Origin: Candidatus Oxydemutatoraceae bacterium
GTDB lineage: Bacteria > Pseudomonadota > Gammaproteobacteria > Poriferisulfidales > Oxydemutatoraceae
Assembly: GCA_965223735.1 (NCBI GenBank)
Contig: OZ245010.1
Coordinates: forward strand, 916,924-980,923
Direction of reading: 5' to 3'
Length of the DNA: 64,000 nucleotides
The notes under the pieces are model-generated. The model saw only the letters and a list, made by a program, of their open reading frames with translations. It searched no databases and was not told the DNA's origin. Each line of letters opens with the position of its first letter. Position 1 is the stretch's first letter. Made by a program: the position numbers and the translations under genes. This document shows positions 6,557 to 50,454 of the stretch, one piece after another.

Positions 6557-6702
6557 TATCAGGCTGCCTGGGGTCATCCCGAAGTTGACGTGCAGGTTGT
6601 CGGTCGGCGTTGTTGGTTGGCGTGGTGCCCCGCGCGCAGATGTCGCGGCAACCCGGGCAGGCCTGAAACATCGGAGACCAAGTTGCGGGGGCGGTTCAGC
6701 GC
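6557..6702 (-). repeat. ~145-bp IS-derived repeat, copy A (inverted copy of 17413..17555)
   Basis: About 85-90% identical to 17413..17555 in reverse complement (gcgytgaaccgcccccgcaac...cttcgggatgaccc). Copy B lies within the open frame at the 3' end of an rve-type transposase pseudogene. Confidence 0.6.
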
Positions 6703-6832
6703 ATTGCGGCAGAGGCGGCGCAAGTGGAGTACGGGGAGGGGGCCGCGACGGGCGCGGCGTCTTTGGTCTGGCGGAGAAAGAGGGTCTGGCGGAGAACGTG
6801 GAGGAGTGTAGCCGGGAACTGGATTGGTGAGT

Positions 6833-7281: not shown

Positions 7282-7397
7282 CCTGAGCCAACCGGAACCC
7301 GTTATTGTTGTTGCGGTTGTTGCGGTTGTTCCTGTTGCGGTTCGCCGCACGCAGGTTCCCGGCGTTGTTGTTGTTCCAGGAGCCCCCGCGAAGCACG
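7282..7397 (-). repeat. DGR template repeat (TR)
   Basis: 116 bp, co-linear with VR1 (8882..8996) and VR2 (15019..15133). The coding sense is AAC-rich (..SWNNNNAGNLRAANRNRNNRNNRNNNNGFRLAQ). Nearly all TR/VR mismatches sit at TR adenines. Confidence 0.8.
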
Positions 7398-8405
7398 GGC
7401 TCGTATGGCAACAGCCCTCGTAAACTTCACGCCGCCGAAGATATTGCGGCGCAATCCCCACGTCTCGCCATGCCGGGCGTGCCCTATCCAGCTCATCACG
7501 CCGGGCTGAAAATCCGACAATTCACGCCGCCCCGCACGGTACTCTTCCGCCATGCCGCGTAGTCGGCGGCGAAAGCGGTAGCCGTTATCGTTGCGCAGCC
7601 AGCGCCTGCCGGCCGTCAACTGAAACCCCAGCACGTCCTGCTTTTCGCTGGTCCGGCACAGCTGCTGCTTCAGCGGGTGCAGTTGCAGGCCCAAGACGCT
7701 CAACGCTTGACCTGCCCTGTCGCGCAAAGCCCACAGATCAGCCTTGTTGTCGCCGAACAGGAAGAAGTCATCGACATAGCGCATGTAACCCCCCGCCCGC
7801 CGTTGCAGCTCGTGGTCAAGGGCATTCAGGTACAGATTGGCCAGCACCTGGCTGGTCAGATTGCCGATCGGCAGCCCCCGCCTGTCCCCGGCGGAATCAA
7901 CGATGGCGTCGAGCGCCCGCAACGCATATTCATCTTTCAGATAACGCCGGATGCAGGCTTTCATCCCGTCGTGCGGGATCGAGGGGAAATAGGCCGCGAT
8001 GTCGAGATGCAGCACGTAGGCATAACGTCGGGCCTGCGCCTGGTAATAGTCCAGTGCGCGATGCACCCCCATGCCTTTGCGGCAGGCCCAGGATTGATCG
8101 ATCATCGATCGATCCAGCCACGGCTCGATGACGTTCATCAGCGCGTGATGAACCACCCGGTCGGCAAAAGGCGCGCAGGAGATCACTCTCGGCTTGCGTT
8201 CGTAGAGGGTGAATTGCCGGTAGCCGCCCGGCTGCCACGTGTTGCCCGCCAATCGCCGTTGCAACTCGATCAAGTTGGTTTCCAGATCCAGCGCGAAGCG
8301 GGCGACGTCATCGCGCCGGGCCTTGCCCCGCCGGGCTTTGCGCCAGGCGAGATGCAGATTGTCGAAACTGCACACCTGCGGCCAGATCCTGCCCAGGCGC
8401 TTCAT
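7302..8405 (-). CDS. DGR reverse transcriptase
   Basis: RT motifs including RYVDDFFLFG (YxDD). Immediately downstream of avd with a 4-bp overlap. The 3' end of the ORF reads through the TR in another frame (..QQPQQPQQQ). Confidence 0.85.
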   Translation of the reverse strand: MKRLGRIWPQVCSFDNLHLAWRKARRGKARRDDVARFALDLETNLIELQRRLAGNTWQPGGYRQFTLYERKPRVISCAPFADRVVHHALMNVIEPWLDRSMIDQSWACRKGMGVHRALDYYQAQARRYAYVLHLDIAAYFPSIPHDGMKACIRRYLKDEYALRALDAIVDSAGDRRGLPIGNLTSQVLANLYLNALDHELQRRAGGYMRYVDDFFLFGDNKADLWALRDRAGQALSVLGLQLHPLKQQLCRTSEKQDVLGFQLTAGRRWLRNDNGYRFRRRLRGMAEEYRAGRRELSDFQPGVMSWIGHARHGETWGLRRNIFGGVKFTRAVAIRARASRGLLEQQQRREPACGEPQQEQPQQPQQQ

Positions 8406-8764
8406 GCCGGCTTCGCCCGCGAAACACTTTTCAGCCAGCCGCCGATCTGCCTGCCCAGGTCCACCATCAACCGGGCGCCGTGCTGGTAAGCCTTATGCGA
8501 AATGGCCTTCAATTCATAAGCCAGACGCCACAGGTGCTTCAGCACGTTGAGTTTCTGACTGGCGTATTCAAGCGCGCCCGCTTTTCTGGCGCTGAAAGCG
8601 GCCTTGACCAGATGCTCCAGCACCAGCAGCGCGTGGTTCTCCAGCCTCTCCCCGAGGATGAAACGCCGCTTGCGGGGAAAGCGGTCGATCTGAGGGATCA
8701 GCCACCGGATCATCTGGTGGCAGGACTCCACCGCCTGCGGCAATTGGGGCGTTTTTTCGGTCAT
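8402..8764 (-). CDS. avd: DGR accessory variability determinant (Avd; four-helix-bundle protein)
   Basis: 120 aa. Resembles Bordetella phage bAvd (..FPRKRRFILGERLENHALLVLEHL..KLNVLKHLWRLAYELKAIS..DLGRQIGGWLKS). Positioned between target and RT. Confidence 0.7.
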   Translation of the reverse strand: MTEKTPQLPQAVESCHQMIRWLIPQIDRFPRKRRFILGERLENHALLVLEHLVKAAFSARKAGALEYASQKLNVLKHLWRLAYELKAISHKAYQHGARLMVDLGRQIGGWLKSVSRAKPA

Positions 8765-8805
8765 GGCCGCATCATCAGAATTTCCCCCGCTGACGCACGG
8801 GCCGA

Positions 8806-8823
8806 CGCCGCCTCACGGCGGCG
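8806..8823 (-). other. GC hairpin (7-bp stem CGCCGCC/GGCGGCG, GTGA-type 4-nt loop) downstream of VR1/IMH
   Basis: Perfect palindrome cgccgcc-tcac-ggcggcg about 55 nt 3' of VR1 on the coding strand. An identical copy lies at 14943..14960 after VR2. Position and geometry match the DGR homing hairpin. Confidence 0.6.
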
Positions 8824-8873
8824 CGGCTCGCTCACGCTCGCCGTCAAGGGTCCAAGCATCAAGCGCCAAGGGA

Positions 8874-10184
8874 TCATAAGTCCTGAGCCAACCGGAACCC
8901 GAGCTCGCTGAAGCGGTAGCCGCGGAAGAACCCGTAGCGGTCCGCCGCACGCAGGGCCCCGGCGAGGTTGCTGAGCCAGGAGCCCCCGCGAAGCACGACG
9001 CGAATCCTGACGCCCTCAATATCCTTGACATCATCGCACCCGCGCGTCCAGGCACTGCCATCGACAGGCGCCCCCCTGTAATCCTCATGCCAGCAATCCT
9101 CCACCCACTCCCACACGTTCCCATGCATATCATGCAAACCGAACCCGTTCGCCCTGAAACGCCCCACCGGGGACGTGTACTGATACCCGTCATTGCAATG
9201 AAAACTTCCGCACTTGTAACCGACAGGGCAAAGACTATCGTCAAAGCAGTTGGCGTTGCCGCGAAGCGACGCCTCACTGTTGCCGGAATAATACCGGGTT
9301 TCGGTCCCCGCCCGCGCCGCATACTCCCATTCCGCCTCCGTCAGCAGACGGTACCGCTTCCCCATCTCCCGCCTCAGCCACTCGACATACGCTTTGACGT
9401 GATCCCAACTCACGCACACCACCGGGTGTTGACCCGTCTGGCTGAAACCGGGATTGCGCCAGTCGGCATTGGCATCGAAGACCACCTTTCCCTCACCTTG
9501 ATCCCACCTCAAACAACCACTGCCCGCATCGTAGCCCGTCGCCTTGACAAACGCCGCAAACTGCGCCCGCGTCACTTCATGTTTGCTCACCGCGAAGGAC
9601 TTGATCCGAACCGTATGCACCGGACGCTCACCATCGTCGCCCCCGCCCTGAAGGTCCCCCATCCGGAAACTCCCGCCCGGCAACACCACCATCTCCGGCT
9701 CGAAATATCGCGCTGCTCGATGGCCCGGCATGGCCGACGTCAGCCAAGTGCCGATTACATACCCCACTTTGCCGTCCGCCAGTTCAACCTTATGCCAGCC
9801 TGAACCCCCCGACCCAACCACCGACACCGCTTCCGACGCCGAGAGTCTGCCGATGATCTCATGCTTCATCCCCGGCCCCGAACGCACGTTCACGTCCACA
9901 CGCGCATACATCCGCCGGACTTCAGGCCGCTCTGCAACCACCTCGCCAGACCCTTGCCGGGCGGGCGGCTTCTGTGCAACGCGGGCGGCAGCTTCAGGCG
10001 CATAACCTTTCCCGACAGAGGCCGACGAGGCTTTGGCAAGGCAGACAACTTCAGAGGCGAGAACCTGTGACGTTCGGTCTGGCGCGGCGGCGCCGACATC
10101 CATGCTCCAGCAGACGCTCTCAGCCTGCGCGGCCTGATAAAGACCGTGGACAAAAGAGAAAAAAAGCAAGCCGGGCATTATCAT
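8874..10184 (-). CDS. DGR target protein 1: signal peptide + bacterial SH3 domain + FGE-sulfatase/C-type-lectin-fold domain with C-terminal VR
   Basis: MIMPGLLFFSFVHGLYQAAQA signal peptide. SH3b-like segment VNVRSGPGMKHEIIGRL...GWHKVELADGKVGYVIGTWL. FGE-domain motifs (HTVRIKSFAVSKHEVTRAQFAAFV..., WEWVEDCWHEDY, RGGSW). The listed ORF extends further upstream to 10334. Confidence 0.7.
   Translation of the reverse strand: MIMPGLLFFSFVHGLYQAAQAESVCWSMDVGAAAPDRTSQVLASEVVCLAKASSASVGKGYAPEAAARVAQKPPARQGSGEVVAERPEVRRMYARVDVNVRSGPGMKHEIIGRLSASEAVSVVGSGGSGWHKVELADGKVGYVIGTWLTSAMPGHRAARYFEPEMVVLPGGSFRMGDLQGGGDDGERPVHTVRIKSFAVSKHEVTRAQFAAFVKATGYDAGSGCLRWDQGEGKVVFDANADWRNPGFSQTGQHPVVCVSWDHVKAYVEWLRREMGKRYRLLTEAEWEYAARAGTETRYYSGNSEASLRGNANCFDDSLCPVGYKCGSFHCNDGYQYTSPVGRFRANGFGLHDMHGNVWEWVEDCWHEDYRGAPVDGSAWTRGCDDVKDIEGVRIRVVLRGGSWLSNLAGALRAADRYGFFRGYRFSELGFRLAQDL
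8882..8996 (-). repeat. DGR variable repeat VR1 (3' end of target gene 1)
   Basis: Aligns with the TR end to end. The encoded VLRGGSWLSNLAGALRAADRYGFFRGYRFSELGFRLAQDL differs from TR-encoded ..NNNN..N..N.N.NN.NN.NNNN.. only at TR AAC codons. Confidence 0.8.
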
Positions 10185-10249
10185 GGCGCCTGCCTTCCGG
10201 GCGCGGCCCGCCCCCCGCAGCCTCCGTGCAAACGCAGGCTTCCCCGTTC

Positions 10250-13200
10250 TCAGGGCATTTGTACTTTGGTTTGACATTTTGGGCCACCTCCTGTGGGGCA
10301 TCTTGCCGGAAAACTCCGGTTTTGAACTGTCCAATTTATGGGGAAGCCTACGCTTTCTACACCAGTAATCTTCAGACTGACCCTTCTATTCAAGGCGTGT
10401 ATGAAACTGTTTTCACCTTTCAGCATTGTCTCTTCAAACCGTTTCTCCTCTCCCTCATTATTCTCAGGATCCCATTTCACCAGCTTAATTTCGGGTATTT
10501 TCCCGCAAATTTTAAGGGCTTCTGGTTCATTGACCAAGGTTTTCAATTTACGGCACACCGCTTCTGCTCTTCTATTTGCCAGTTCCATATTTGTCTTCAT
10601 TTCGTCTCGGCCTGTATGCGGCCTTTTATCCGCCAGCCCCATCACTTTAATCACCGGATTACCACCTCGACAATTCCCAAAGTGTTCAGTCAGCTCGCTT
10701 GACATTTTCTTCCAATCGTCTTCTTCCACCTTCAGTTCATCTTTGCCGGTTTCAAATAGAGGTAACCAAATCATTGTACTTTTCGACGTTGAGCCCTCGA
10801 CTACAGGAGAATGGTAGTTCACCACGACTTTCGTCGTTGAGCTGCAATGTGTATGAGAACAGCTCTCTACGGCCTTTGGCGTTGAATCCAGGCTTCTCAT
10901 GTATCTGTCAAATTCCTGAACTTCAAATCCTTGCTTTCCATCTTCGATCAATACGGCGTTGCCAAACCGAATGACGCTACTCGGTGCATCTTTGAGATGA
11001 AGATGAAACCTGTCACTATGTTTAATACAGTATCCGCTAAGACAACCGGTCCCCAGTAGTGACAATAAAAGAATACCGATGAACCCATATGTATAACTTC
11101 TCTTTGAGGTGATAAAGAAATCAATCAGAGAGCGCTTTTTGAAAATTGCCTCGTGCGCCAATACCAATGTTTTCTGTTTCGGAATCCTGATTTCCATGCG
11201 CTTTTTTGCACAACGTGCCGTCGCCTGGTAAAATGCCAACAATGCAGTGATAACCAAAAAAACAGAACCAGCTGAATGAACAGGGTATTGCACCAACGCC
11301 TGAAGCCCACTTTCCCAAGTTTGCAAAGGAGCGGTACCGGGTAACACGAATGTGAGTGCCGCAAAGTATATAAACACGGAAAAAATCAATATTATGGATG
11401 GCTTAAAACCATCAATCACCAGGTAACGCCTATAGAACCTCTTCAGATACGGATAGATATCATCTGGCTTCTCGCGATTCACCCAAGTAAGAAGTTTTTT
11501 AAATACTTCTTCCCTTAATTCGGTTATAACTTTAAGTTTTTTCGTCACTCCTCCTAAATTTTCGACCAGTTCCCCACTACTTTCAATTCCCATCTTCAGC
11601 CCACCCACTTCCGCCAATACTCCTTTCAGATTTTTTAATTCTGGTGTTTGGGGGGTACCCCAGTGGCCCTTGCCCGCATTTTTTGATAGTTTCAAATAAT
11701 CATAGATTTCACGCTTCCTATTCTTTTTCATGCCCTCGTAACATTCAGAACATTTTCTAAGTCTGGATTTCAAGTCTTTAAGCCCACTTGACATACCCCC
11801 CTTCAAACTACTTACTGTTTTTTCAAATTCAGATTTAAAGTCTCTAAATCCACTTAACACACTCTCCACTAAACCCTTTGCTGTTTTCTCTGCTTCCTCA
11901 AGTTCAGATTTCAAACCTTCAAGCTTGTCTTGCGCGTTTTTCGTCAGACTTTTCACTTTTTTTTCCACGTTCTCAAATTCCTCTCTCAAGTCCCTAAGCC
12001 TGTTTTGCACGTCCTCCACCCTCCTTAACCATCCCTTTTTTACTCCTGTTGCTTTCTTAAGTTCGGCTTCCACACCTCCAAGTTCGTTTCGCGCGCTCCT
12101 CACCTTGTCCGACCCTTCCCTTTCCACTTTCTCAAATTCATTTTCCAAATCTTCAAGTCTGCTTTGCATATCCCCCGCCAGAGCTTTCTCTTTTGTTTCC
12201 TCAGAGATCTTTCGCACTTCCCTTATTTTCTCAAGTTCAACTTCCACACTTTTAAGCTTGCTTTGCGCGTTTCTCGCCAAGTTCTTCACTTCTTCTTTTG
12301 CTTCCTCAAGTTCAGCCCCCAGATCTTTAAGCTTGCTTCGAGCACCCTTCACCAGTCCCCCCTCTTCCTCTTCTTTAAGTTTCTTTCGTGCCTCTCTTAC
12401 TTTCTCAAGCCCAGCTTCCAGACCTTCAAGCTCGCTTTGTACATACTCCGCCAAACTCTCATTTTCCACTCCCTTAAGTTCAGCTCCCAGACCTTTAAGC
12501 TCGTTTTGTGCATACTTCGCTAAACTCTCATTTTCCACTCCCTTAAGTTCAGCTTCCAGGCCTTCCAGATCTTCTTCCACTCCCTCAACCGCAGATCTCA
12601 AGCCTTTAAGCTTGCTTCGCACATCCTCCACCAAACCTTCCTCTCTTACTTTTTCAAGTCCTTCTCTTGCGCCCCTTACTTCCCCAATTTCAGATCTCAA
12701 GCCTTTAAGCTTGCTTCGTGCGTCCCTCACCAAGTCTTTCACTCCTTTTTTTACTTTCTCAAGTTCAGCTTCCAGACCTTTAAGCTCGCTTTGTGCATCC
12801 CCCACCTTCTTTAACCTCTCCTCTTTTACCTCCTTAAGTCCATCCTTGAATTCAGTTTCCAACCCCTCAAGCGTACTTTGCGCATTCCCCACCAACCCAT
12901 CTTTCTCTACCCCCTCAAGTGCAGCCTTCAAATCTTCAAGCTTGCTTTTCGCATCCTCCATCAACCCCTTCTTTTCAACCTCCTCAAGCGCAGTCTCCAG
13001 GTCTTTAAGCTTGTTTTGCGCACCCTCTACCAAGACACCGCCCTGTTTTACTTTCTCAAGTTCAGCTCCCAGATCTTCAAGCTTGTTTCGCGCGTCCCCG
13101 ACCTTCGTTAACCTCTTTGCTTCTCTCACAAGCCTGTCCTTAAATTCACCCTCCAGCTTTTCAAGCCTGCTTTTCCTCGCATCCCCCACCAGACCCTTCT

Positions 13201-14812
13201 TCTTTATTTCCCCAAGTGCAGTTTCCAAGCTTTCAAGCTTGCTTCGTGCATGCTTTACTTTCTTCAACTCCTCTTCTTCCACCTTTACTTTCTCAAGTCC
13301 GTCCTTAAGTTCAGCTCCCAAACCTTCAAGCTTGTTTCGCGCATCCTCTACCAGCCCCTTCTTCCCCACCTCCTCGAGTGCGGTTTTCAAGCCCTCAAGC
13401 TCGCTTTGCACGTCCCATGCCAGATCCTTCTCTTCTACCTCCCCAAGCGCAATCTCCAGGTCTTTAAGCTTGTTTTGCGCATCCCTCATCAGCCTTTTCA
13501 TTTCTTGTTTTACTTTCTCAAATTCAGCTTCCAAACCTTCAAGCTTGTCTTGCGCATCTCTTACCAGCTCCTTCTCTTCTACCTCCCAAAGTTTGGGTTT
13601 CAGGCTCTCAAGCTTGCTTTGCGCATCTCTTACCAGCCCCTTCTTTTCCACCTTCCCAAGTTTGGTTTCCAGTTCTTCAATCTCGCTCTGCGCGTCCCTT
13701 ACCAGATCCTCCTTTTTCACTTTCTCAAGCTTGGATTTCAAGTCCCCAAGCTTTTCTCCTGTTTCCCGCGTAATACTGTAATCTGCATCTATAGTCTCAA
13801 AAACATTCTTTAAATTTTCGTCTTTAGCAATCTTGACTTTGTGCTTTTTACTTCCTTCAGACCAGTTTGGGTGATCATCAAGAAATTCTAGCGCGCCTTT
13901 TGCACGCTTATTGAAATCTTCCAACTTAAAAAGTAAATCCTTCTGGAAAAGTAAATCCTTCTGGCCCGGGTGATCATCACCGGCACTTGGAGAGGGATCA
14001 GCTCTTATATGTTCCAACAAAATTCGGGAAAGAGGCTTGATTACATTCTTATCAGACCAATATTTGGTGTGACAGCGTAGATTCCATGAAGTAAAAATGC
14101 CTCCTACATTAATAGGGTGATCTTTAATATCCTCGAATGGTTTCCCCAGTTGCTTTAACGGCCAACCCAATACATCATCGGGGTCATAGTAATTATCCCA
14201 CCTGAATTCTTTCTTCGCTGCTATGTCGAAACACTTACGATCATTCTCAGCTATCCCTGAAACGAATACTGGAATATTGCATCCTGTCGTAACCAAGTTC
14301 CTCAACGAATGCAATTTAACAAAAGCCAGTTCATCAGAAGGAAGTCCTGGATTGTTTTTAAAAATATGGTTGCCATTTTCAGCATCCCACAAATAATTTG
14401 AAATCACCTGACAGCCAAGAGATTGAGCAATGATCACAACAGGTTTCGAGTTTTCACCCCCGCTGAGATCCTTATAGGCCTCTTTCAAGGCGTTCATTAT
14501 TTCTGTTTGCGCCTTAATATATGCTTTTGCCTCTTCGGTGCGGGCGCTGCGCTCAAGAGAGCCCGCGTCGCCGAAACCAAACAAGACGAATTTTCTTAGC
14601 GACTTAAAATCAACCTTGTTCTCTGACTTGATCTTTCGCCATAATCGATCCTGATGGCCCTGCAGTGTTGAGTCATACCTCACATTTTGGAAAGAGACCT
14701 TCTCCCACTTATCTTTAAGACGCCTTCTCAGGCCCTTTTCCAAACCTGCATAGTAATTATCCTTGCGTTCTCCCATGCCATGGAGTGTGATCAATGCCAC
14801 CTTTTTACTCAT
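10250..14812 (-). CDS. giant (1520 aa) modular protein: N-terminal alpha/beta-hydrolase-like domain (GxSxG = AQSLG), ~30 tandem ~23-aa coiled-coil repeats, multi-TM segment, C-terminal OmpA/MotB-like peptidoglycan-binding domain
   Basis: One uninterrupted ORF. The N-terminal has ITLHGMGERK...IAQSLGCQV. Its repeats read like LVRDAQSKLESLKPKLEEVEKKG. Hydrophobic helices fall around residues 1125-1260. The C-terminal domain reads VIKVMGLADKRPHTGRDEMKTNMELANRRAEAV. Markedly lower GC than flanking DGR genes. Confidence 0.7.
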   Translation of the reverse strand: MSKKVALITLHGMGERKDNYYAGLEKGLRRRLKDKWEKVSFQNVRYDSTLQGHQDRLWRKIKSENKVDFKSLRKFVLFGFGDAGSLERSARTEEAKAYIKAQTEIMNALKEAYKDLSGGENSKPVVIIAQSLGCQVISNYLWDAENGNHIFKNNPGLPSDELAFVKLHSLRNLVTTGCNIPVFVSGIAENDRKCFDIAAKKEFRWDNYYDPDDVLGWPLKQLGKPFEDIKDHPINVGGIFTSWNLRCHTKYWSDKNVIKPLSRILLEHIRADPSPSAGDDHPGQKDLLFQKDLLFKLEDFNKRAKGALEFLDDHPNWSEGSKKHKVKIAKDENLKNVFETIDADYSITRETGEKLGDLKSKLEKVKKEDLVRDAQSEIEELETKLGKVEKKGLVRDAQSKLESLKPKLWEVEEKELVRDAQDKLEGLEAEFEKVKQEMKRLMRDAQNKLKDLEIALGEVEEKDLAWDVQSELEGLKTALEEVGKKGLVEDARNKLEGLGAELKDGLEKVKVEEEELKKVKHARSKLESLETALGEIKKKGLVGDARKSRLEKLEGEFKDRLVREAKRLTKVGDARNKLEDLGAELEKVKQGGVLVEGAQNKLKDLETALEEVEKKGLMEDAKSKLEDLKAALEGVEKDGLVGNAQSTLEGLETEFKDGLKEVKEERLKKVGDAQSELKGLEAELEKVKKGVKDLVRDARSKLKGLRSEIGEVRGAREGLEKVREEGLVEDVRSKLKGLRSAVEGVEEDLEGLEAELKGVENESLAKYAQNELKGLGAELKGVENESLAEYVQSELEGLEAGLEKVREARKKLKEEEEGGLVKGARSKLKDLGAELEEAKEEVKNLARNAQSKLKSVEVELEKIREVRKISEETKEKALAGDMQSRLEDLENEFEKVEREGSDKVRSARNELGGVEAELKKATGVKKGWLRRVEDVQNRLRDLREEFENVEKKVKSLTKNAQDKLEGLKSELEEAEKTAKGLVESVLSGFRDFKSEFEKTVSSLKGGMSSGLKDLKSRLRKCSECYEGMKKNRKREIYDYLKLSKNAGKGHWGTPQTPELKNLKGVLAEVGGLKMGIESSGELVENLGGVTKKLKVITELREEVFKKLLTWVNREKPDDIYPYLKRFYRRYLVIDGFKPSIILIFSVFIYFAALTFVLPGTAPLQTWESGLQALVQYPVHSAGSVFLVITALLAFYQATARCAKKRMEIRIPKQKTLVLAHEAIFKKRSLIDFFITSKRSYTYGFIGILLLSLLGTGCLSGYCIKHSDRFHLHLKDAPSSVIRFGNAVLIEDGKQGFEVQEFDRYMRSLDSTPKAVESCSHTHCSSTTKVVVNYHSPVVEGSTSKSTMIWLPLFETGKDELKVEEDDWKKMSSELTEHFGNCRGGNPVIKVMGLADKRPHTGRDEMKTNMELANRRAEAVCRKLKTLVNEPEALKICGKIPEIKLVKWDPENNEGEEKRFEETMLKGENSFIHALNRRVSLKITGVESVGFPINWTVQNRSFPARCPTGGGPKCQTKVQMP
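11820..13800 (-). repeat. in-frame tandem coding repeats (~69-72 bp period) inside the giant gene (coiled-coil array)
   Basis: Recurrent nucleotide and amino-acid motif (..GLEAELEKVKK.., ..LVRDAQSKL..). The antisense 618-aa Ser-rich ORF (11925..13781 +) is an artifact of this repeat. Confidence 0.7.
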
Positions 14813-14942
14813 TTTTACTCATTTTTCTCTCCTGCCTGTTGCTTGCCTTCCGGTACAACCACCATCTCCATCTTCAGGCAATGTCTGCCCTTGCACCCCG
14901 CGCCACCCTGTCCCGTCGGCCCACGGCCACGTCACGGGCCGA

Positions 14943-14960
14943 CGCCGCCTCACGGCGGCG
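14943..14960 (-). other. GC hairpin downstream of VR2 (second copy)
   Basis: Same cgccgcc-tcac-ggcggcg palindrome as 8806..8823, within a duplicated 3' flank. Confidence 0.6.
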
Positions 14961-15010
14961 CGGCTCGCTCACGCTCGCCGTCAAGGGTCCAAGCATCAAG
15001 CGCCAAGGGA

Positions 15011-15895
15011 TCATAAGTCCTGAGCCAACCGGAACCCGCCATTGTGGACCCGGTCGACGCGGTTGCTCCAGTTGCGGGCCGCCGCACGCAGGTCCCCGGC
15101 GTCGCCGTCGCCCCAGGAGCCCCCGCGAAGCACGCGAATCCTGACGCCCTCAATATCCTTGACATCATCGCACCCGCGCGTCCAGGCACTGCCATCGACA
15201 GGCGCCCCCCTGTAATCCTCATGCCAGCAATCCTCCACCCACTCCCACACGTTCCCATGCATATCATGCAAACCGAACCCGTTCGCCCTGAAACGCCCCA
15301 CCGGGGACGTGTACTGATACCCGTCATTGCAATGAAAACCTCCGCACTTGTAACCGACAGGGCAAAGACTATCGTCAAAGCAGTTGGCGTTGCCGCGAAG
15401 CGACGCCTCACTGTTGCCGGAATAATACTGGGTTTCGGTCCCCGCCCGCGCCGCATACTCCCATTCCGCCTCCGTCAGCAGACGGTACCGCTTCCCCATC
15501 TCCCGCCTCAGCCACTCGACATACGCTTTGACGTGATCCCAACTCACGCACACCACCGGGTGTTGACCCGTCTGGCTGAAACCGGGATTGCGCCAGTCGG
15601 CATTGGCATCGAAGACCACCTTTTCCTCACCTTGATCCCACCTCCAACAACCACTGCCCGCATCGTAGCCCGTCGCCTTGACAAACGCCGCAAACTGCGC
15701 CCGCGTCACTTCATGTTTGCTCACCGCGAAGGACTTGATCCGAACCGTATGCACCGGACGCTCATCATCGTAGCCCCCGCCCTGAAGGTCCCCCATCCAG
15801 AAACTCCCGCCCGGCAACACCACCATCTCCGGCTCCCAGGCAATCCCATCACCGGAAAGAAGCAGCAGACAACAAGACAGCAACGCGGAACGCAC
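15011..15895 (-). CDS. DGR target protein 2: signal peptide + FGE/C-type-lectin-fold domain with C-terminal VR
   Basis: Paralog of the target 1 C-terminal ~290 aa (about 1 kb of near-identical DNA, 8795..9810 vs 14930..15845) with a different VR. GTG start; N-terminal hydrophobic leader LLSCCLLLLSG. Confidence 0.7.
   Translation of the reverse strand: MRSALLSCCLLLLSGDGIAWEPEMVVLPGGSFWMGDLQGGGYDDERPVHTVRIKSFAVSKHEVTRAQFAAFVKATGYDAGSGCWRWDQGEEKVVFDANADWRNPGFSQTGQHPVVCVSWDHVKAYVEWLRREMGKRYRLLTEAEWEYAARAGTETQYYSGNSEASLRGNANCFDDSLCPVGYKCGGFHCNDGYQYTSPVGRFRANGFGLHDMHGNVWEWVEDCWHEDYRGAPVDGSAWTRGCDDVKDIEGVRIRVLRGGSWGDGDAGDLRAAARNWSNRVDRVHNGGFRLAQDL
15019..15133 (-). repeat. DGR variable repeat VR2 (3' end of target gene 2)
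   Basis: Encodes VLRGGSWGDGDAGDLRAAARNWSNRVDRVHNGGFRLAQDL. Differences from the TR are again at TR adenines, with one cgc>cgg exception. Confidence 0.8.
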
Positions 15896-15948
15896 CGTGG
15901 AGACCAGGCGCGCTTCGAAATCGAAATCGGTTTTTACAGTTTGCTCAA

Positions 15949-15964
15949 GGGGGGGGGGGGGGGG
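15949..15964. repeat. homopolymeric G16 tract (poly-C on the coding strand) ~55 nt upstream of target 2 start
   Basis: 16 consecutive G at 15949-15964, in the presumptive promoter region of the target2-giant-target1-avd-RT gene string. Confidence 0.9.
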
Positions 15965-17400: not shown

Positions 17401-17412
17401 GGTTTGACACAA

Positions 17413-17555
17413 TGCGTTGAACCGCCCCCGCAACCTGGTCGCCGAACCCTGTTTCAGGCCTGCCTGAGTTGCCACGGCACCTGCCCGCGGGGCGTCACCC
17501 CCATCAACAACGCCGACCGGCAACCCGCACGTCAACTTCGGGATGACCCTGATAG
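17413..17555 (+). repeat. ~145-bp IS-derived repeat, copy B
   Basis: Inverted partner of 6557..6702. Lies within the open frame of the transposase pseudogene above, just before the tnpB left flank. Confidence 0.6.
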
Positions 17556-21031: not shown

Positions 21032-22210
21032 CCGGAAAGCCGTCTCTCGGACACGGCGCAATATGCTTTCGAGATATCGATTCCAAGATAACGGCGCCCT
21101 ATTTTCTTGGCAACCACACAAATGGTTCCCGCCCCGTTGAACGGCTCCAGAACAATATCGTTTTTGAAACTGAAAAGAGCCAACGCCCGGTGCACTAATT
21201 CCTCTGGAAACATCGCGGGGTGACCGTATTCGTCCATGTTTCTTTCCGGCGCTACAGACCATTTTGCATAAACCCAGTTTTTGAAATCATCGCCGGATAT
21301 GTCGGCATCCTCTTTTTTGCCTGTTTTCTTAAGTGAACCCTTGCAAAAAACTTCAAGAAATTCCCGGCTGTACTTCATGTACGGATTGGAGGAGCTCTTC
21401 CAGCTTCCCCAAGCCGTGTACTTGCAGTTGTAGTTATTTTTCTCCCACAGGATCTCGCTTTTCCATATCAGTTTTTTCATTGGCCGGGTAATTTCTGATA
21501 ATGTGATGCGAAGGAATATAATTGGAATACAACGGCTGCACATTGATTATCAGCCGACCGCCATAAACTAGAACCCGTACACACTCATCCAGCACTGAAA
21601 ACAGCTTGCCAAAGTAAGCATTCCAATCAACGGCATCATCATCGTCTGTCGCATAGTTCAGCCCGAAGTTATAAGGAGGAGATGTAAATACCAGATCGAT
21701 GCAGTTGTCGGGGAGATTTTTAAGAAACCTTTCACTGTCTTCACAGATGATCTTATTTTCATATTCGAAGGGTAATTGATTCCTTGCTTCCCGATAATTA
21801 TTGTCCTCGGCATAAAAATACTTTCCTCTGGCTTTTTCTTTATCTTTTCTGCCCGTCACTTTTCTTTCTGCGTTATATCCCTGATAGACGCGGCGTTTCC
21901 CGCGTATCCCGTAACTCTTGATGCTCTCTATAGCTCTTAAAATGCTCTCCGCCAACAACTCATCCGAGTCTTCCTTGACAATGGTCTGCAAATATTCCCG
22001 CAAAGCGGTCATATCCACAGAATGCAGATAAAGCACAAGACAACGCCCGCCGGTCTCCCAAGTCAACTTCAGATCCCAATGCTTCTTGCCCGCAACATGG
22101 ATTCCGGCGGCAATTCGCTCGACCGCTTCCTCATCTTCAAATCCGGGCAACGGAATTTCCTTATAGGAGATCCCGCCATTGGAAGAAAAGTTTCCGGCTA
22201 TTTTATGCAT
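21022..22210 (-). pseudogene. beta-class amino (N4-C or N6-A) DNA methyltransferase split by a frameshift
   Basis: The N-terminal ORF (21434..22210) carries motif IV VFTSPPY. The overlapping C-terminal ORF (21022..21543) carries motif I LEPFNGAGT and HPAMFPEEL. The two halves are in different frames. Confidence 0.6.
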
Positions 22211-22289
22211 CAGAAATCCCCGACAGTTACTCTATGACATGATGCTGGTGTATGAGGGCAGAAACATACAGGACCTCCAGCCTGATTAA

Positions 22290-22565
22290 AAAGGAAACCG
22301 ACATGCCGGTCCAGCACGTCAGCTTCCGCCTCAAAGGTTTCTATAAAATCGCCTCTTTATCTACCAAATGGGAGGCGATTATGGGGACTGTAGCCCAACA
22401 GAAACTTGAAGCCCTGACATTCTGGAACAAACACGGCCTGAATGTCACCTTTGATGCATTATAATAACCGGCGCCCATACCGGGGACTCGACAACCTGAC
22501 ACCCAGCCAAATGCTTGCCAAAAATCTGCCCCTGATGTCCCATATGTGGCGGCCGCATACAAGAG
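22290..22565 (+). mobile_element. internally deleted IS481-family element (copy 1)
   Basis: Transposase N-terminus (..FRLKGFYKIASLSTKWEAIMGTVAQQKLEALTFW..) is fused to the extreme 3' end (..nrrphrgldnltps..). Homologous to 24215..24600. Confidence 0.55.
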
Positions 22566-22589
22566 TAAGTATTATCAAGGTATAAAGTT

Positions 22590-23651
22590 ATGTACATCAA
22601 CCAAACGGAACACAAAATACTTTTTGGAGATTCAAGGAATCTAAGTGAAATTCAGGATAAATCTATTGATCTGGTTGTTACTTCACCTCCATATCCTATG
22701 ATAATTATGTGGGATGAGGTATTTTTTGAACAAAATCAAAGGATCAAAGAAAATATTAATAATGAAGATGGATATACTGCCCATACACTAATGCATGAAG
22801 AACTCAATAAAACATGGAAAGAGGTTGACAGGGTTCTGAAAGAAGGCGGCATTGTTTGTATAAATATAGGAGATGCAACAAGAACAATGAATGGCACATT
22901 CAAATTATACCCAAACCACTCACCAGTACTTGAAACATTTTTATCCCTTAGTTTTGATTCACTTCCAACAATTCTGTGGAGAAAGACAACAAATTCTCCC
23001 AACAAATTTATGGGATCCGGCATGCTGCCAGTCGGAGCATATGTAACATTAGAGCACGAAAGGATTTTAATTTTTAGAAAAAAAAGAAAAAGGAAGTTTA
23101 TTGGAGATAAAGAAAAGGAGAATAGGATGAAAAGTGCGTTCTTTTATTCAGAGAGAAATAAATGGTTTTCTGATATATGGGATGATATAAAAGGAACTCA
23201 ACAAGCATTAAAAGAAAAAGGGGTAAGAGAAAGAAGCGGGGCGTATCCATTAGAACTGCCATATAGGTTAATTAATATGTTTTCCGTGAAAGGCGATACA
23301 GTGCTTGACCCATTTCTTGGGACGGGTACCACCTCTGCCGCAGCAATTATCACAGGAAGAAACAGTGTAGGAACAGAAAAAGAGAGAAAATTTGAAAAAA
23401 TTATCGATAAAACAATTACTCACTTTATCAACAATGCGGAACATTTAGTACAGAAGCGTATGGATACTTATATAGACTTTATAGAACAAAGAGAAAGGAA
23501 TGGAAAAATGTGTAAGTATAAAAATATATTTTACTCATTTCCTGTAGTTACTAAACAGGAACAAAAAATATGCTTTGAAGTTCCCACTGAGAAGGTAAAA
23601 AATGGATCGGAAAATTTTTTGATCTCTCATGAGTTTTTTAGTTACAAATAA
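22590..23651 (+). CDS. beta-class amino DNA methyltransferase (N4-C or N6-A)
   Basis: LVVTSPPYPM (motif IV) and LDPFLGTGTTSAAA (motif I). 353 aa, AT-rich. Confidence 0.75.
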   Translation: MYINQTEHKILFGDSRNLSEIQDKSIDLVVTSPPYPMIIMWDEVFFEQNQRIKENINNEDGYTAHTLMHEELNKTWKEVDRVLKEGGIVCINIGDATRTMNGTFKLYPNHSPVLETFLSLSFDSLPTILWRKTTNSPNKFMGSGMLPVGAYVTLEHERILIFRKKRKRKFIGDKEKENRMKSAFFYSERNKWFSDIWDDIKGTQQALKEKGVRERSGAYPLELPYRLINMFSVKGDTVLDPFLGTGTTSAAAIITGRNSVGTEKERKFEKIIDKTITHFINNAEHLVQKRMDTYIDFIEQRERNGKMCKYKNIFYSFPVVTKQEQKICFEVPTEKVKNGSENFLISHEFFSYK

Positions 23652-38024: not shown

Positions 38025-38192
38025 CTCGGAAAGACAACTTTCAAATGTTTCGAGGGCCTGTTCCTGAAACTCCTTGGGCGCACCGCTCAGTCTCCAAAAA
38101 GACGGTGGATGGCATAGGGCAACTGGCAGAAGGTCACTGATATGCGAGATGGATACGGACTTTTGTTCGGCAGCTTTTGGGTAGGTGGCTAC

Positions 38193-45340: not shown

Positions 45341-45850
45341 ATGAAAATCATCAGCGGCGGACAAAGCGGCGTGGATCGCGGCGCGCTCGACGCCGCACGC
45401 ACGCTTGGTCTTGATTACGGCGGCTGGTGCCCGCGCGGCGGCCTCGCCGAAGATCATCCCGCGCCACCCGGCCTGCTCGCGGACTATCCGGCGCTTGAGG
45501 AAACCCCCTCGTCCGACTACCTGCAACGCACCGAGTGGAACGTGCGCGACGCAACGGCCACCTTGATCATCGCGCCGAACGCGGAACGCGCCGGGAGCGA
45601 CGGCACCGGCTACACGCTGGACTGCATCCGGAAGCACCGCAAAGACCACTGCATCGTGTTGCTCGACGACCCCGACCACCGCCGCAAGGCGCTCGAATGG
45701 CTCGCGCGCCTGGATGACGACGCGATCCTGAACGTCGCGGGGCCGCGCGAAAGCAAAGCACCGGACATCGGCCGACAGACACGTGAACTGCTGTGCGACC
45801 TGCTGCGCAATTTGTCGGTGAGCGTGCCCGGCGGAACACCCGGCGGGTAG
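45341..45850 (+). CDS. putative molybdenum-cofactor carrier / SLOG-family protein
   Basis: IISGGQSGVDRGALDAA...GGWCPRG...QRTEWNVRDA pattern. Confidence 0.5.
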   Translation: MKIISGGQSGVDRGALDAARTLGLDYGGWCPRGGLAEDHPAPPGLLADYPALEETPSSDYLQRTEWNVRDATATLIIAPNAERAGSDGTGYTLDCIRKHRKDHCIVLLDDPDHRRKALEWLARLDDDAILNVAGPRESKAPDIGRQTRELLCDLLRNLSVSVPGGTPGG

Positions 45851-45924
<74 letters not shown>

Positions 45925-46165
45925 CCGAATAGGAACGCATAGTTTACCAGCCTCAAAGAGTTAAGTATCACCCTTCATTATCTTCGCCATCGCGCCCGTA
46001 AAGGCTTTGTCATGCTCAACTCGCCGAATTGTTCCCAGCCTTCCGCAATAAATTGTTGGGGGCCAAAATCCATTCGGATTGCAGACGGATCACACGGCGA
46101 GCCAGTCAGTACCTCACAAATCAGGCGTTCCAAGTTACGTTCAGAAATGTCAGCAGGCGATGGCG

Positions 46166-46694
46166 TTATGGGGGTTGCCAACCAAAACTTGCCTTCAGTT
46201 CTCGAAGCATTTCAAATGTACTGACACACGGAACGTGAAATTGTCTGCATACATTGGGCAACGAGATACATCTTTGGGCATCAGGCGTGTATGCTTCCTG
46301 TGTTACCACGGTATGCCCATACACCTTGGCATAAGCGGCAAGCCAACCATCCGCTTTATCAGCAAACTCTGCTTTTGCATCGTCTTTGAATTGTCCGTGC
46401 CCAATAACCCATCGCATTATTTGTTTAAAAACATCATTAACTTCCGGGGGATCGGTTGGTTGAAAAAATGAATCAGATAATGCCGCCCATGTTCTCAGAT
46501 TTTCAGCCACGTTCTCCGGTATGTTTCCCGCAAGGACCTCTCCACGAACCCTGTTGATACTTACCACTCGTTCAGTTTAGTGATAAAAAATCAAACATTC
46601 CCAAAAACCGGGGGCAGAGGTCAAACGCATAGTAACGACGGCACGCTTCTATAAAAACATTGGCATCAAGTACATAAATTGGCGCCTGGTTCAT
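46166..46694 (-). pseudogene. DUF4411-family (PIN-like) toxin-type gene, frameshifted
   Basis: N-terminus MNQAPIYVLDANVFIEACRRYYAFDLCP (DUF4411 start) from the ATG at 46694. Frame is lost at homopolymer runs (ccccc, ttttt) near 46575-46600. C-terminal part ..ADGWLAAYAKVYGHTVVTQE..LPNVCRQFHVPCVSTFEMLRELKASF lies in another frame (listed ORF 46166..46567). Confidence 0.55.
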
Positions 46695-46699
46695 TGTAT

Positions 46700-47848: not shown

Positions 47849-47875
47849 GGCACGGTCACTTTATTCCAGCAGAAC

Positions 47876-48376: not shown

Positions 48377-48389
48377 GGATGCCTCTTGC

Positions 48390-48734: not shown

Positions 48735-48803
48735 GTACTGCCAAAGGAATGAAAAGCAGAATCATGCATTATATTCTTTTCATTACCGACCAATAAGCAA
48801 CGT

Positions 48804-50368: not shown

Positions 50369-50454
50369 TCTGGATTCTTGGTTTCGGTTGAAATACCAAT
50401 GGTGATTAAAAGTAGCGCATTCTAGGAGATAAAGCAACCTGTCATTTCCGACCC

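What the first reader, a model, noticed from the sequence alone, without database searches (positions are those of the whole stretch)
10250..14812. AT-rich 1520-aa hydrolase / coiled-coil / OmpA-like giant gene inserted between the two DGR targets
A single intact ORF with clearly lower GC than the GC-rich DGR genes on either side. Architecture from the translation: N-terminal alpha/beta-hydrolase-like domain with a serine-nucleophile pentapeptide (AQSLG), about 30 tandem ~23-aa heptad-like repeats (LVRDAQSKLEGLEAELEKVKKG variants) forming a ~650-aa predicted coiled-coil stalk, three to four TM helices, then an OmpA/MotB-type peptidoglycan-binding domain (..KVMGLADKRPHTGRDEMKTNMELANRRAEAV..). 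It sits in the same orientation between target 2 and target 1 and is probably co-transcribed from the promoter carrying the G16 tract. Such a cell-envelope-anchored fibre in the middle of a DGR cassette is not part of canonical DGRs. It may be a cargo/effector or a receptor-binding scaffold displayed alongside the diversified lectin-fold proteins.
Basis: partly seen in the sequence, partly recalled or inferred. Interest (0 to 1): 0.7.

Follow-up and report, generated by a model that had tools for sequence, protein, structure and literature searches.

The report
Foreign giant membrane-anchored hydrolase gene inside DGR
A real, intact 1520-codon gene of foreign (low-GC) origin sits between two hypervariable DGR target genes; it encodes a one-of-a-kind fusion of a lipase-like enzyme, a long helical repeat arm, three membrane helices and a cell-wall-binding domain, and looks like a lineage-specific insertion, not a DGR part.

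Summary
The ORF at 10250..14812 (-) is intact (1520 aa) and has 41-49% GC, against about 62% in the flanks.

- The N-terminus (aa 1-266) is an alpha/beta hydrolase with conserved Ser131, Asp210/213 and His248. It belongs to a widespread, unnamed family. All relatives inspected are stand-alone proteins of about 240-296 aa.
- The roughly 23 repeats are amphipathic and heptad-like, but the heptad register shifts about once per repeat. This is a segmented helical arm, not a continuous stalk.
- There are three TM helices.
- The C-terminal OmpA-like fold is supported by fold search only, not at Pfam threshold.

The predicted topology is N-in. The hydrolase and arm are therefore cytoplasmic and only the OmpA-like end is periplasmic, which argues against a displayed fibre or receptor-binding scaffold.

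The gene is not a DGR component. GC boundaries hug the gene, and codon usage is unlike the host's. Thirty distant DGR loci and one close one (five tandem targets) lack it.

Beyond the N-domain the protein is nearly an orphan: one truncated relative in 1.84 billion representatives.

Best reading: a horizontally acquired single-gene cassette, possibly a conflict or defence effector. Function is unproven.

The parts
10250..14812 (-). Intact 1520-aa ORF (the giant gene), stop codon included
   Evidence: GC 0.41-0.49 against 0.62 in the flanks
10250..14880 (.). Low-GC foreign segment, a single-gene cassette of about 4.6 kb with sharp GC boundaries
   Evidence: 100-nt GC profile. Codon usage correlates at r = -0.20 with host genes and +0.46 with the window's other low-GC island genes. 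All three protein parts have GC3 0.44-0.48
14015..14812 (-). N-terminal alpha/beta-hydrolase domain (aa 1-266): HGMG (aa 11-14), AQSLG with Ser131 (codon 14420-14422), DPDD (aa 210-213), His248
13778..14014 (-). Non-repetitive linker (aa 267-345) with a perfect 18-nt tandem duplication (13929-13964, QKDLLF x2)
   Evidence: no homologue
11783..13777 (-). Helical repeat arm (aa 346-1010): about 23 diverged units of 23-52 aa (mostly 23-37), consensus LVRDAQSKLEGLEAELEKVKKKG
   Evidence: DNA repeat families D1-D4, TRF, protein units. Hydrophobic periodicity 3.34/3.58 is about 11 sd above shuffles. Heptad score 0.67 against 0.38 in shuffles, but 28 register runs. Family hits are only compositional coiled-coil matches
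11399..11782 (-). Non-repetitive pre-membrane region (aa 1011-1138), unknown fold
   Evidence: Its last part (from the YLKRFYRRYL stretch just before TM1) aligns with P0121
11024..11398 (-). Three TM helices (aa 1139-1157, 1181-1199, 1245-1263) and their loops; N-in, C-out
   Evidence: Hydropathy. K+R counts: 5 before TM1, 0 in loop 1, 12 in loop 2. No acidic residue in any TM
10253..11023 (-). Periplasmic C-terminal region (aa 1264-1520), Cys-rich (7 Cys in 257 aa)
10355..10780 (-). OmpA/MotB-like putative peptidoglycan-binding core (aa ~1345-1486): GLAD...N.ELANRRAEAV...NRRVSL
   Evidence: Pfam OmpA 16-17 bits, below the gathering score of 27.2. PomB and OprF are the best PDB sequence hits, E 0.2-0.3. 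The AF2 model has pLDDT 58-79 in this stretch. Foldseek's top hits are almost all OmpA/MotB/Pal/TssL domains, E from 7e-5
14802..14826 (-). Perfect 10-nt tandem duplication (x2.5) that duplicates the start codon. The RBS-proximal ATG (14822) opens a 5-codon uORF (MSKNE*); the real ATG (14812) lies 10 nt further on
14813..15010 (-). 198-nt spacer between the target A stop and the giant's ATG. Its first ~78 nt (14933-15010) repeat the sequence downstream of target B, including a GC-rich hairpin. No terminator-like or promoter-like site
10185..10249 (-). 65-nt GC-rich spacer between the giant's stop and the target B ATG
15011..15895 (-). Context: DGR target A (short hydrophobic N-terminus plus CLec/FGE-sulfatase; VR 15019-15134)
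8874..10184 (-). Context: DGR target B (hydrophobic N-terminus, SH3_3, CLec/FGE-sulfatase; VR 8882-8997). Nucleotides 8796-9701 are 96% identical to 14933-15835, so 906-nt direct repeats bracket the giant
7282..8764 (-). Context: bAvd (8402-8764), RT (7302-8405), TR (7282-7397)

Best explanation
The gene is a horizontally acquired single-gene cassette from a lower-GC donor. It landed in the spacer between two paralogous DGR target genes and is not part of the DGR machinery.

The protein is a polytopic inner-membrane protein with this layout:
- aa 1-266, cytoplasmic: a catalytically intact serine alpha/beta hydrolase of a lipase/esterase/phospholipase-like type (AxSxG elbow, Ser-Asp-His).
- aa 346-1010, cytoplasmic: a roughly 665-aa arm of short amphipathic heptad helices.
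- Three TM helices.
- The C-terminal part, periplasmic: a Cys-rich region ending in an OmpA/MotB-like domain that most likely binds peptidoglycan.

Inferred mechanism: the OmpA-like domain and TM helices fix the protein to the envelope at the cell wall, and the arm holds or presents the hydrolase in the cytoplasm below the membrane. The gene sits in a stretch of chromosome whose other low-GC islands carry defence genes, and its lipase-like domain is tethered to the membrane. The most likely role is therefore a conflict or defence-type effector that couples envelope state to an esterase or phospholipase activity.

Shown: the ORF, its composition, the domain folds, the predicted topology, the orphan status, and absence from related DGRs. 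Inferred: peptidoglycan binding, enzyme substrate, any signalling, and the defence role.

Transcription is probably by read-through from the target A promoter, because no terminator or promoter is detectable in the spacers. This is not shown.
For: Foreign origin:
- Sharp GC steps lie at the gene's ends, GC3 is 0.45 against 0.71-0.75, and codon usage correlates at r = -0.20 with host genes.
- Composition is uniform across all three protein parts, so the fusion predates the transfer.

Not part of the DGR:
- The gene contains no TR/VR copy.
- It has no Avd- or HRDC-like family match.
- It is absent from 30 DGR loci found with the RT (RT at most 56% identical).
- It is absent from L044, the closest locus (about 80% nt identity over CLec-avd-RT). 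L044 has five tandem targets, uniform GC of 0.53-0.65 and no giant homologue.

Hydrolase.

Topology: no N-terminal signal sequence; K+R counts of 5, 0 and 12 around TM1 and TM2; Cys enrichment in the C-terminal part.

OmpA-like fold.

Orphan status:
- The C-terminal 436 aa has one hit (P0121, E 2e-6) in 1.84 billion representatives, and none in the 5.8-billion word-indexed search.
- The middle 865 aa has none.
- P0121 is collinear through all three TM helices and the OmpA-like motif. It is a 5'-truncated fragment on a 1523-nt contig of 34% GC.

Defence-rich neighbourhood in the same window: a DRT UG19 RT, a type III REase, an RmrA-like protein, NotI with a methyltransferase, and other methyltransferases, mostly in the window's other low-GC islands.
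Against: - Neither the N-domain nor the C-module has any PADLOC or PHROG match, so a defence role rests only on neighbourhood and architecture.
- Stand-alone homologues of the hydrolase sit in variable, uninformative contexts with no conserved partner.
- The gene is embedded in the DGR operon in the same orientation, with short spacers that lack terminators. A functional link to the periplasmic targets cannot be excluded.
- The OmpA call fails Pfam's threshold and rests on a model with mean pLDDT 50.6.
- The 10-nt duplication at the start codon may weaken or switch off translation.
- Related DGR loci other than L044 are distant.
Confidence: 0.6

Rival explanations
1. The giant is a recruited functional partner of the DGR. 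The two secreted hypervariable CLec proteins (one with an SH3 domain) would sense ligands in the periplasm and signal through the giant's periplasmic domain, TM helices and arm to its cytoplasmic hydrolase. That would make it a sensor-effector conflict system.
For: - The gene has the same strand as the targets, with 198-nt and 65-nt spacers that lack terminator-like sites.
- Both targets have hydrophobic, signal-like N-termini, and the giant's C-terminal part is predicted to be periplasmic. The two could therefore meet.
- DGR-diversified CLec domains have been proposed as antigen sensors of conflict systems that carry effector domains, including alpha/beta hydrolases and TM plus OmpA modules (PMC7159879, PMC10907252).
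Against: - The gene is foreign in composition.
- It is absent from all related DGR loci, including the closest.
- No STAND/MoxR/vWA/adaptor domains are present.
- The architecture is a database singleton, so there is no recurrent association.
Confidence: 0.1
2. It is a structural or scaffolding protein: a coiled-coil-rich tether linking cell wall, inner membrane and a cytoplasmic structure. The hydrolase domain would act as a binding or housekeeping module, not as a conflict effector.
For: - The arm is long, acidic and heptad-like.
- There is an OmpA-like anchor.
- No defence-family match was found.
Against: - It is a single-copy foreign gene with essentially no orthologues. Structural proteins are usually conserved within lineages.
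- The catalytic residues are fully conserved.
Confidence: 0.15
3. It is a silent or decaying passenger. The gene is intact in sequence but poorly expressed or not expressed, because its AT-rich foreign DNA may be silenced and its start codon is displaced from the RBS by the 10-nt duplication.
For: - A perfect 10-nt tandem duplication places a 5-codon uORF at the RBS-proximal ATG.
- There is a second perfect in-frame 18-nt duplication.
- No promoter of its own was detected.
Against: - 1520 codons are open.
- All 42 family-invariant residues of the N-domain are retained at 50-63% identity.
- The repeats are diverged but all in frame.
- The real ATG overlaps the uORF, so coupling or re-initiation is possible.
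Confidence: 0.12

Closest known systems
Unnamed family of stand-alone ~266-aa bacterial alpha/beta hydrolases (e.g. P0002 Amphritea, P0067 Pseudomonas, P0072 Vibrio coralliilyticus; annotated 'hypothetical protein')
   Same: aa 1-266 align end to end at 50-63% identity, with all invariant residues (HGMG, A-x-S-L-G, D-x-x-D, S-H..YW)
   Different: All 120 listed relatives, and the plasmid and viral hits, are stand-alone proteins of about 240-296 aa. Here the domain continues without a stop into 1250 further residues. The family has no Pfam, NCBIfam, PADLOC or PHROG model and no known function
Minimal lipases/esterases and the DDHD (intracellular phospholipase A1 / Nir2) domain
   Different: Identity is only 8-16%, and there is no sequence-level family match. 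The substrate is unknown
OmpA_C-like peptidoglycan-binding domains (OmpA, Pal, MotB/PomB, long-form TssL)
   Same: The predicted fold and the motif (G-x-A-D ... N-x-x-L-A-x-R-R-A-x-x-V ... R-R-V) match. The domain is periplasmic and follows a TM segment, as in MotB and TssL
   Different: It scores below the Pfam and NCBIfam cut-offs: 16-17 bits against 27.2, and 18.7 against 139.8. There are three TM helices instead of one, and no TM aspartate. No MotA/ZorA/T6SS partner genes are present
Zorya ZorAB (PMC11946911)
   Same: Conceptually similar: a peptidoglycan-binding periplasmic domain, an inner-membrane anchor and a very long helical structure projecting into the cytoplasm, which in Zorya relays envelope perturbation to cytoplasmic effectors
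   Different: Zorya is a two-protein 5:2 proton-driven motor with a continuous pentameric coiled-coil tail and separate nuclease effectors. Here there is one polypeptide, no stator aspartate, a segmented arm, a fused hydrolase and no PADLOC ZorA/ZorB match. The resemblance is architectural only
DGR-associated conflict systems (Kaur et al. 2020, PMC7159879; Dore et al. 2024, PMC10907252)
   Same: CLec/FGE-type DGR targets lie next to putative effector domains. Alpha/beta hydrolases and TM plus OmpA modules are listed among the effector or anchoring domains in those systems
   Different: There is no STAND, MoxR, vWA, VMAP or adaptor domain here. The targets are small secreted proteins, and the giant is absent from related loci

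Membership tests
Alpha/beta-hydrolase fold superfamily | Nucleophile elbow (small-x-Ser-x-small) between a beta strand and a helix | tested here: met
   AQSLG at aa 129-133 follows strand 125-130 and opens helix 132-146 in the AF2 model
Alpha/beta-hydrolase fold superfamily | Catalytic triad in the order Ser-Asp-His, conserved across relatives | tested here: met
   S131, D210/D213 and H248 are invariant in 37 sequences. They sit after strands 125-130 and 204-209, with H248 just before the last helix. Their spatial proximity could not be checked because no coordinates were available
Alpha/beta-hydrolase fold superfamily | Overall fold similarity to solved members | tested here: met
Alpha/beta-hydrolase fold superfamily | Hydrolytic activity | not testable with these tools
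   Needs an enzyme assay
Any curated hydrolase family (Pfam/NCBIfam) | Score at or above the curated cut-off | tested here: not met
   The N-domain has no Pfam match even at E up to 10 and no N-terminal NCBIfam match. Homologues reach only 11-12 bits on Hydrolase_4
OmpA family (PF00691) / OmpA_C-like PG-binding domain | Pfam gathering score (27.2 bits) | tested here: not met
   16.0-16.8 bits for the giant and 18.3 bits for P0121, both on the same part of the profile
OmpA family (PF00691) / OmpA_C-like PG-binding domain | Beta-alpha-beta-alpha-beta-beta fold | tested here: inconclusive
   The model has mean pLDDT 50.6, and 58-79 over the domain. Even so, Foldseek's top hits are almost all OmpA/MotB/Pal/TssL domains, with E from 7e-5 and TM-score about 0.5-0.58 normalised to the target
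OmpA family (PF00691) / OmpA_C-like PG-binding domain | Conserved Asp and Arg that contact the diaminopimelate of peptidoglycan | tested here: met
   GLAD and ELANRRAEAV align with the T-D and LSERRANAV segments of OprF and are conserved in P0121. Which residues contact peptidoglycan is from my own knowledge of OmpA-like domain structures. Binding itself was not tested
MotB/PomB/ZorB-type stator subunit | Single N-terminal TM helix with a conserved proton-binding Asp | tested here: not met
   There are three TM helices, and none contains D or E
MotB/PomB/ZorB-type stator subunit | Adjacent MotA/PomA/ZorA partner gene | tested here: not met
   The neighbours are the DGR targets, and there is no Zorya model hit in PADLOC
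TssL long form (TIGR03350) | NCBIfam cut-off of 139.8 bits | tested here: not met
   18.7 bits, E 0.0013
DGR component (target or accessory gene) | Contains a VR matching the TR | tested here: not met
   The TR matches only 8882-8997 and 15019-15134
DGR component (target or accessory gene) | Recurs in related DGR cassettes | tested here: not met
   tblastn finds no giant N- or C-module in 30 RT-anchored loci or in L044
DGR component (target or accessory gene) | Belongs to a known accessory family (Avd, HRDC, etc.) | tested here: not met
   Only coiled-coil noise and a weak OmpA hit. The locus's bAvd is a separate gene at 8402-8764
Canonical continuous coiled coil | Heptad a/d hydrophobic periodicity | tested here: met
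   Periodicity of 3.34/3.58 is about 11 sd above shuffles. 55% of 21-residue windows score at least 0.7, against 3% in shuffles
Canonical continuous coiled coil | Register maintained over long stretches | tested here: not met
   There are 28 register runs of 22-80 residues. Across consecutive 23-residue repeats the register steps by +2, and 60 Gly occur in 665 aa
Known anti-phage defence protein families (PADLOC 2.0) | Match of a non-coiled-coil part to a defence model | tested here: not met
   Only the coiled-coil segments of LmuB/JetC match the repeat region. The N-domain, the C-module and P0121 have no hits

The most novel reading that the evidence does not exclude
The giant could be a single-polypeptide, Zorya-like envelope-to-cytoplasm transducer: a cell-wall anchor, a membrane segment, a long helical arm and a fused lipase-like effector. 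Captured inside a DGR operon, it would let the two secreted hypervariable lectin-fold proteins serve as its programmable periplasmic antigen sensors. The 10-nt repeat at the start codon and the C16 tract upstream of target A would act as slipped-strand on/off switches.
Probability: 0.07. Interest if true: 0.85.

Novelty: new variant of a known kind. Interest (0 to 1): 0.42.

Why it matters
The component folds are familiar, but no full-length homologue of the combination was found. The 5.8-billion-protein and 1.84-billion-representative searches gave one truncated distant relative of the C-terminal module only.

If the protein is active, it would be a new way to tether a cytoplasmic lipase- or esterase-type enzyme to the cell wall and inner membrane through a very long helical arm. 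That layout recalls envelope-sensing defence machines such as Zorya.

The case also shows that DGR operons can absorb foreign cargo between their targets. Annotating such cargo as a DGR accessory would be a mistake.

The widespread 266-aa hydrolase family it derives from is itself uncharacterised and has no curated model.

Tried and rejected
- **Exact look-ups.** The giant, the RT and a hydantoinase were not on record as gene products, and P0123 failed as well. The source organism stayed unidentified. The best RT relatives are gammaproteobacterial MAGs (Hahella, Cellvibrionaceae, Thiodictyon, Thiocapsa), all at 56% identity or less.
- **Thiohalocapsa PB-PSB1.** I considered it as the source after reading PMC10907252. 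None of its nine described DGR loci matches this one, so I dropped the idea.
- **Metagenome scans.** Scans with the C-terminal alignment and with P0121 found nothing.
- **Phage and plasmid searches.** The phage collection gave no match. Plasmids matched the N-domain only.
- **Coiled-coil hits.** Matches to SMC, Rad50, LmuB, JetC, SbcC, tape-measure protein and Baculo_PEP_C cover only the repeat region and fall below their cut-offs. I rejected them as compositional.
- **GPR1/FUN34/YaaH.** The hit (18-20 bits, gathering score 25) covers the TM1-TM2 hairpin and is probably hydrophobic noise.
- **Integron cassette or transposon signature.** The only repeat at the gene's edge is a 16-nt imperfect inverted repeat around the stop codon. 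No target-site duplication or attC-like site was recognised.
- **Membrane-surface amphipathic helices (apolipoprotein-like).** This is unlikely. The arm has net charge -20 and a narrow a/d hydrophobic seam.
- **AFDB fold search.** The library was not available.
Full report
**1. Observation**

It stands out in composition. GC is 0.41-0.49 across the gene and about 0.62 on both sides. In 100-nt windows GC steps from 0.64-0.65 to 0.49 at the stop codon (about 10250). It steps from 0.48 to 0.70 about 70 nt upstream of the ATG (about 14880). GC3 is 0.45, against 0.71-0.75 for the two targets and the RT.

Codon usage correlates negatively with host genes (r = -0.20) and positively with the window's other low-GC island genes (r = 0.46). 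The hydrolase, repeat and C-terminal parts have the same GC3 (0.44-0.48). The whole fusion therefore arrived as one piece.

**2. Context**

The surroundings are a genuine DGR, all on the minus strand, in this order:
- target A (15895-15011; short hydrophobic N-terminus plus FGE-sulfatase/CLec)
- a 198-nt spacer
- the giant gene
- a 65-nt spacer
- target B (10184-8874; hydrophobic N-terminus, SH3_3, CLec)
- bAvd (8764-8402)
- RT (8405-7302)
- TR (7397-7282), which overlaps the 3' end of the RT

VR_A differs from the TR at 20 positions, 19 of them TR adenines. VR_B differs at 24 positions, 23 of them TR adenines.

The two targets share a 906-nt block at 96% identity (8796-9701 and 14933-15835). 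A 300-nt stretch of it just upstream of the VRs is 99% identical. The giant is therefore bracketed by long direct repeats.

**3. Anatomy of the protein**

(a) *Hydrolase, aa 1-266.* A search of 5.8 billion proteins gave 1065 hits. The best 120 are 50-62% identical, and all are about 240-296 aa.
- In an alignment of 37 sequences, the motifs HGMG, A-x-S-L-G (Ser131), D-x-x-D (210/213) and S-H-x-x-Y-W (His248) are invariant or nearly so. The giant keeps all of them.
- The AF2 model (pLDDT 82, pTM 0.86) places Ser131 at a strand-helix elbow. Asp210/213 come after the next-but-one strand, and His248 sits just before the last helix.
- Foldseek gives YDR428C, acetyl-xylan esterases, cutinases and B. 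subtilis LipA.
- No Pfam, NCBIfam, PADLOC or PHROG model matches this domain.
- Stand-alone relatives sit in variable neighbourhoods without a conserved partner. Distant relatives occur on plasmids and in a few viral contigs, again stand-alone.
- The homology ends exactly where the stand-alone proteins end. The giant is therefore a C-terminal extension or fusion of this family.

(b) *Linker, aa 267-345.* It is non-repetitive and contains a perfect 18-nt duplication, QKDLLF x2.

(c) *Repeat arm, aa 346-1010.* There are 20-23 DNA copies at 60-85% identity and 22 anchored protein units of 23-52 aa, mostly 23-37 aa. The consensus is LVRDAQSKLEGLEAELEKVKKKG.
- The region is 65% A/E/L/K/R/Q/M, has net charge -20, and contains one Pro but 60 Gly.
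- Hydrophobic periodicity peaks at 3.34 and 3.58 residues, about 11 sd above shuffles.
- A heptad scan scores 0.67, against 0.38 +/- 0.02 in shuffles. The register changes 28 times, and across runs of 23-residue units it steps by +2 per unit.
- I read this as a chain of short heptad helices separated by regular breaks, not a continuous two-stranded stalk.
- All database hits to this region (SMC, Rad50, LmuB, JetC, SbcC, tape-measure protein, Baculo_PEP_C) are sub-threshold and compositional.

(d) *Pre-membrane region, aa 1011-1138.* Unknown fold.

(e) *Three TM helices:* aa 1139-1157, about 1181-1199 and 1245-1263.
- K+R counts are 5 just before TM1, 0 in loop 1 and 12 in loop 2.
- There is no N-terminal signal sequence.
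- The C-terminal 257 aa hold 7 of the protein's 16 cysteines.
- This predicts N-in, C-out.

(f) *Periplasmic region, aa 1264-1520.*
- Pfam OmpA scores 16-17 bits against a gathering score of 27.2.
- The TssL long-form model scores 18.7 bits against a cut-off of 139.8.
- PomB and OprF are the best PDB sequence hits, at E 0.2-0.3.
- A two-sequence AF2 model is poor overall (pLDDT 50.6) but reaches 58-79 over aa ~1362-1486, with alternating beta and alpha elements.
- Foldseek returns almost only OmpA, MotB, Pal and TssL peptidoglycan-binding domains, with E from 7e-5.
- The motif GLAD...ELANRRAEAV...NRRV is conserved in the one relative. It aligns with the corresponding OprF segments.

**4. Rarity**

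The C-terminal 422 aa found nothing in the word-indexed search. An exhaustive HMMER search of the last 436 aa against 1.84 billion representatives found one protein, P0121 (E 2e-6). P0121 is collinear with the giant from just before TM1 to the OmpA-like end, at 25% identity. Its gene starts at base 1 of a 1523-nt JGI contig of 34% GC, so it is a 5'-truncated fragment. Its first residues look coiled-coil-like.

The middle 865 aa found nothing at E of 1e-5 or better. Two metagenome scans found nothing. Only the best 120 of the 1065 N-domain hits could be listed, so longer fusion forms further down the list cannot be ruled out.

**5. Is it part of the DGR?**

No evidence says so, and several tests say no:
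- The gene contains no VR.
- Thirty loci fetched with the RT (56% identity or less) have CLec-type target genes flanking the RT, usually immediately upstream. None has a homologue of the giant's N- or C-module.
- The closest locus, L044, is about 80% identical in nucleotides over CLec-avd-RT, and its RT remnants are 85-86% identical in protein. It carries five tandem CLec targets, four of them complete, with short spacers, GC of 0.53-0.65 throughout, and no giant homologue.

The gene is thus a lineage-specific insertion into a target-target spacer.

No sigma-70-like promoter or intrinsic-terminator-like site lies in either spacer. The counts for the region as a whole are not above shuffles. 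Read-through co-transcription is plausible but unproven.

**6. What it most likely does**

*Shown:* an intact, compositionally foreign gene; a catalytically complete lipase/esterase-like domain; an amphipathic helical repeat arm; three TM helices.

*Predicted, not shown:* the N-in topology; the OmpA-like fold of the periplasmic end, which rests on a low-confidence model and sub-threshold sequence hits.

*Inferred:*
- The OmpA-like domain ties the protein to peptidoglycan.
- The arm holds the hydrolase in the cytoplasm near the membrane. Its length would be up to about 100 nm if every residue were in one straight helix (my estimate from 665 aa at 1.5 Å per residue), and far less if the helices fold back on each other.
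- The protein acts as an envelope-anchored effector.

The defence or conflict reading rests on two things. First, the window's other low-GC islands carry a DRT UG19 RT, a type III restriction enzyme, an RmrA-like protein, NotI with a methyltransferase, and further methyltransferases. Second, the architecture is analogous to Zorya: a peptidoglycan-binding domain, a membrane complex and a 70-nm cytoplasmic tail (PMC11946911). It is not a Zorya or MotB member. There is no TM aspartate, no partner gene and no model hit.

A functional link between the secreted targets and the giant's periplasmic domain remains possible in principle but has no comparative support.

**7. Verdict**

The domain reading is largely right, with corrections: the hydrolase and arm are cytoplasmic, the arm is segmented, there are three TM helices, and the OmpA call is fold-level only. 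The link to the DGR is not supported.

Novelty: a new variant built from known folds, with no full-length homologue found. Function is unproven. Interest is moderate.

Noticed in passing
window 14802-14826: A perfect 10-nt tandem duplication (TGAGTAAAAA x2.5) duplicates the giant's start codon. The ATG next to the GGAGAG ribosome-binding site now opens a 5-codon uORF (MSKNE*), and the genuine ATG lies 10 nt further on and overlaps it. This could be a slipped-strand expression switch, or the first step of inactivation.
   Followed up: partly
window 6571-6706 and 17410-17549: Inverted repeats of about 140 nt (86% identical) bracket the whole ~11-kb DGR cassette plus IS debris. The same element occurs between targets in the related contig L044 (4010-4192). 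It looks MITE-like and suggests the cassette as a whole is or was mobile.
   Followed up: partly
window 8796-9701 and 14933-15835: The two DGR targets share a 906-nt block at 96% identity; a 300-nt stretch of it just upstream of the VRs is 99% identical. The block includes 78 nt downstream of the stop codon with a GC-rich hairpin. This points to recent duplication or gene conversion, while the N-terminal parts differ (short leader against leader plus SH3).
   Followed up: yes
window 7282-7397: The template repeat overlaps the 3' end of the RT ORF, so the RT's C-terminal tail (QQ/PQ-rich) is encoded by the TR. The TR is not upstream of the RT.
   Followed up: no
window ~15948-15963 (minus strand): A homopolymeric C16 tract lies about 50 nt upstream of target A's GTG start. 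This is a classical slipped-strand phase-variation motif.
   Followed up: no
window 13929-13964: A perfect in-frame 18-nt tandem duplication (QKDLLF x2) lies in the linker just after the hydrolase domain.
   Followed up: no
window 11925-13781 (+): A 618-aa antisense ORF lies opposite the repeat region. It is almost certainly an artefact of the purine-rich GAG/AAG coding strand.
   Followed up: no
window 35496-40343: This low-GC region carries a type III restriction enzyme (842 aa; PADLOC REase_III, E 5e-227; the gene itself is 55% GC) and a 716-aa defence-associated reverse transcriptase (DRT class UG19, E 1e-144; 44% GC).
   Followed up: partly
window 45850-50503: tRNA-Arg(CCG) at 45850-45924 is followed by a low-GC island with an HTH plus IrrE/M78 peptidase (RmrA-like, 46700-47848) and a DNA methyltransferase (49430-50503). 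This is a typical tRNA-adjacent island.
   Followed up: no
window 21434-23651 and 54836-56534: Two further low-GC islands (down to 34% GC) carry N6/N4 DNA methyltransferases and a NotI-family endonuclease with a D12-class methyltransferase.
   Followed up: no
RT paralogues P0123-P0126; locus L044: The source genome's 1.85-Mb contig holds several truncated paralogues of this RT. The related contig L044 has five tandem CLec targets with two RT remnants. This resembles the 'one complete plus several degenerate loci' pattern described for multicellular purple sulfur bacteria.
   Followed up: partly
plasmid hits H5-H11 (Bacillus/Paenibacillus): Distant relatives of the hydrolase family (about 25% identity), about 287 aa where inspected (H5), are annotated 'chemotaxis protein' in RefSeq. 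I could not find what this annotation rests on.
   Followed up: no
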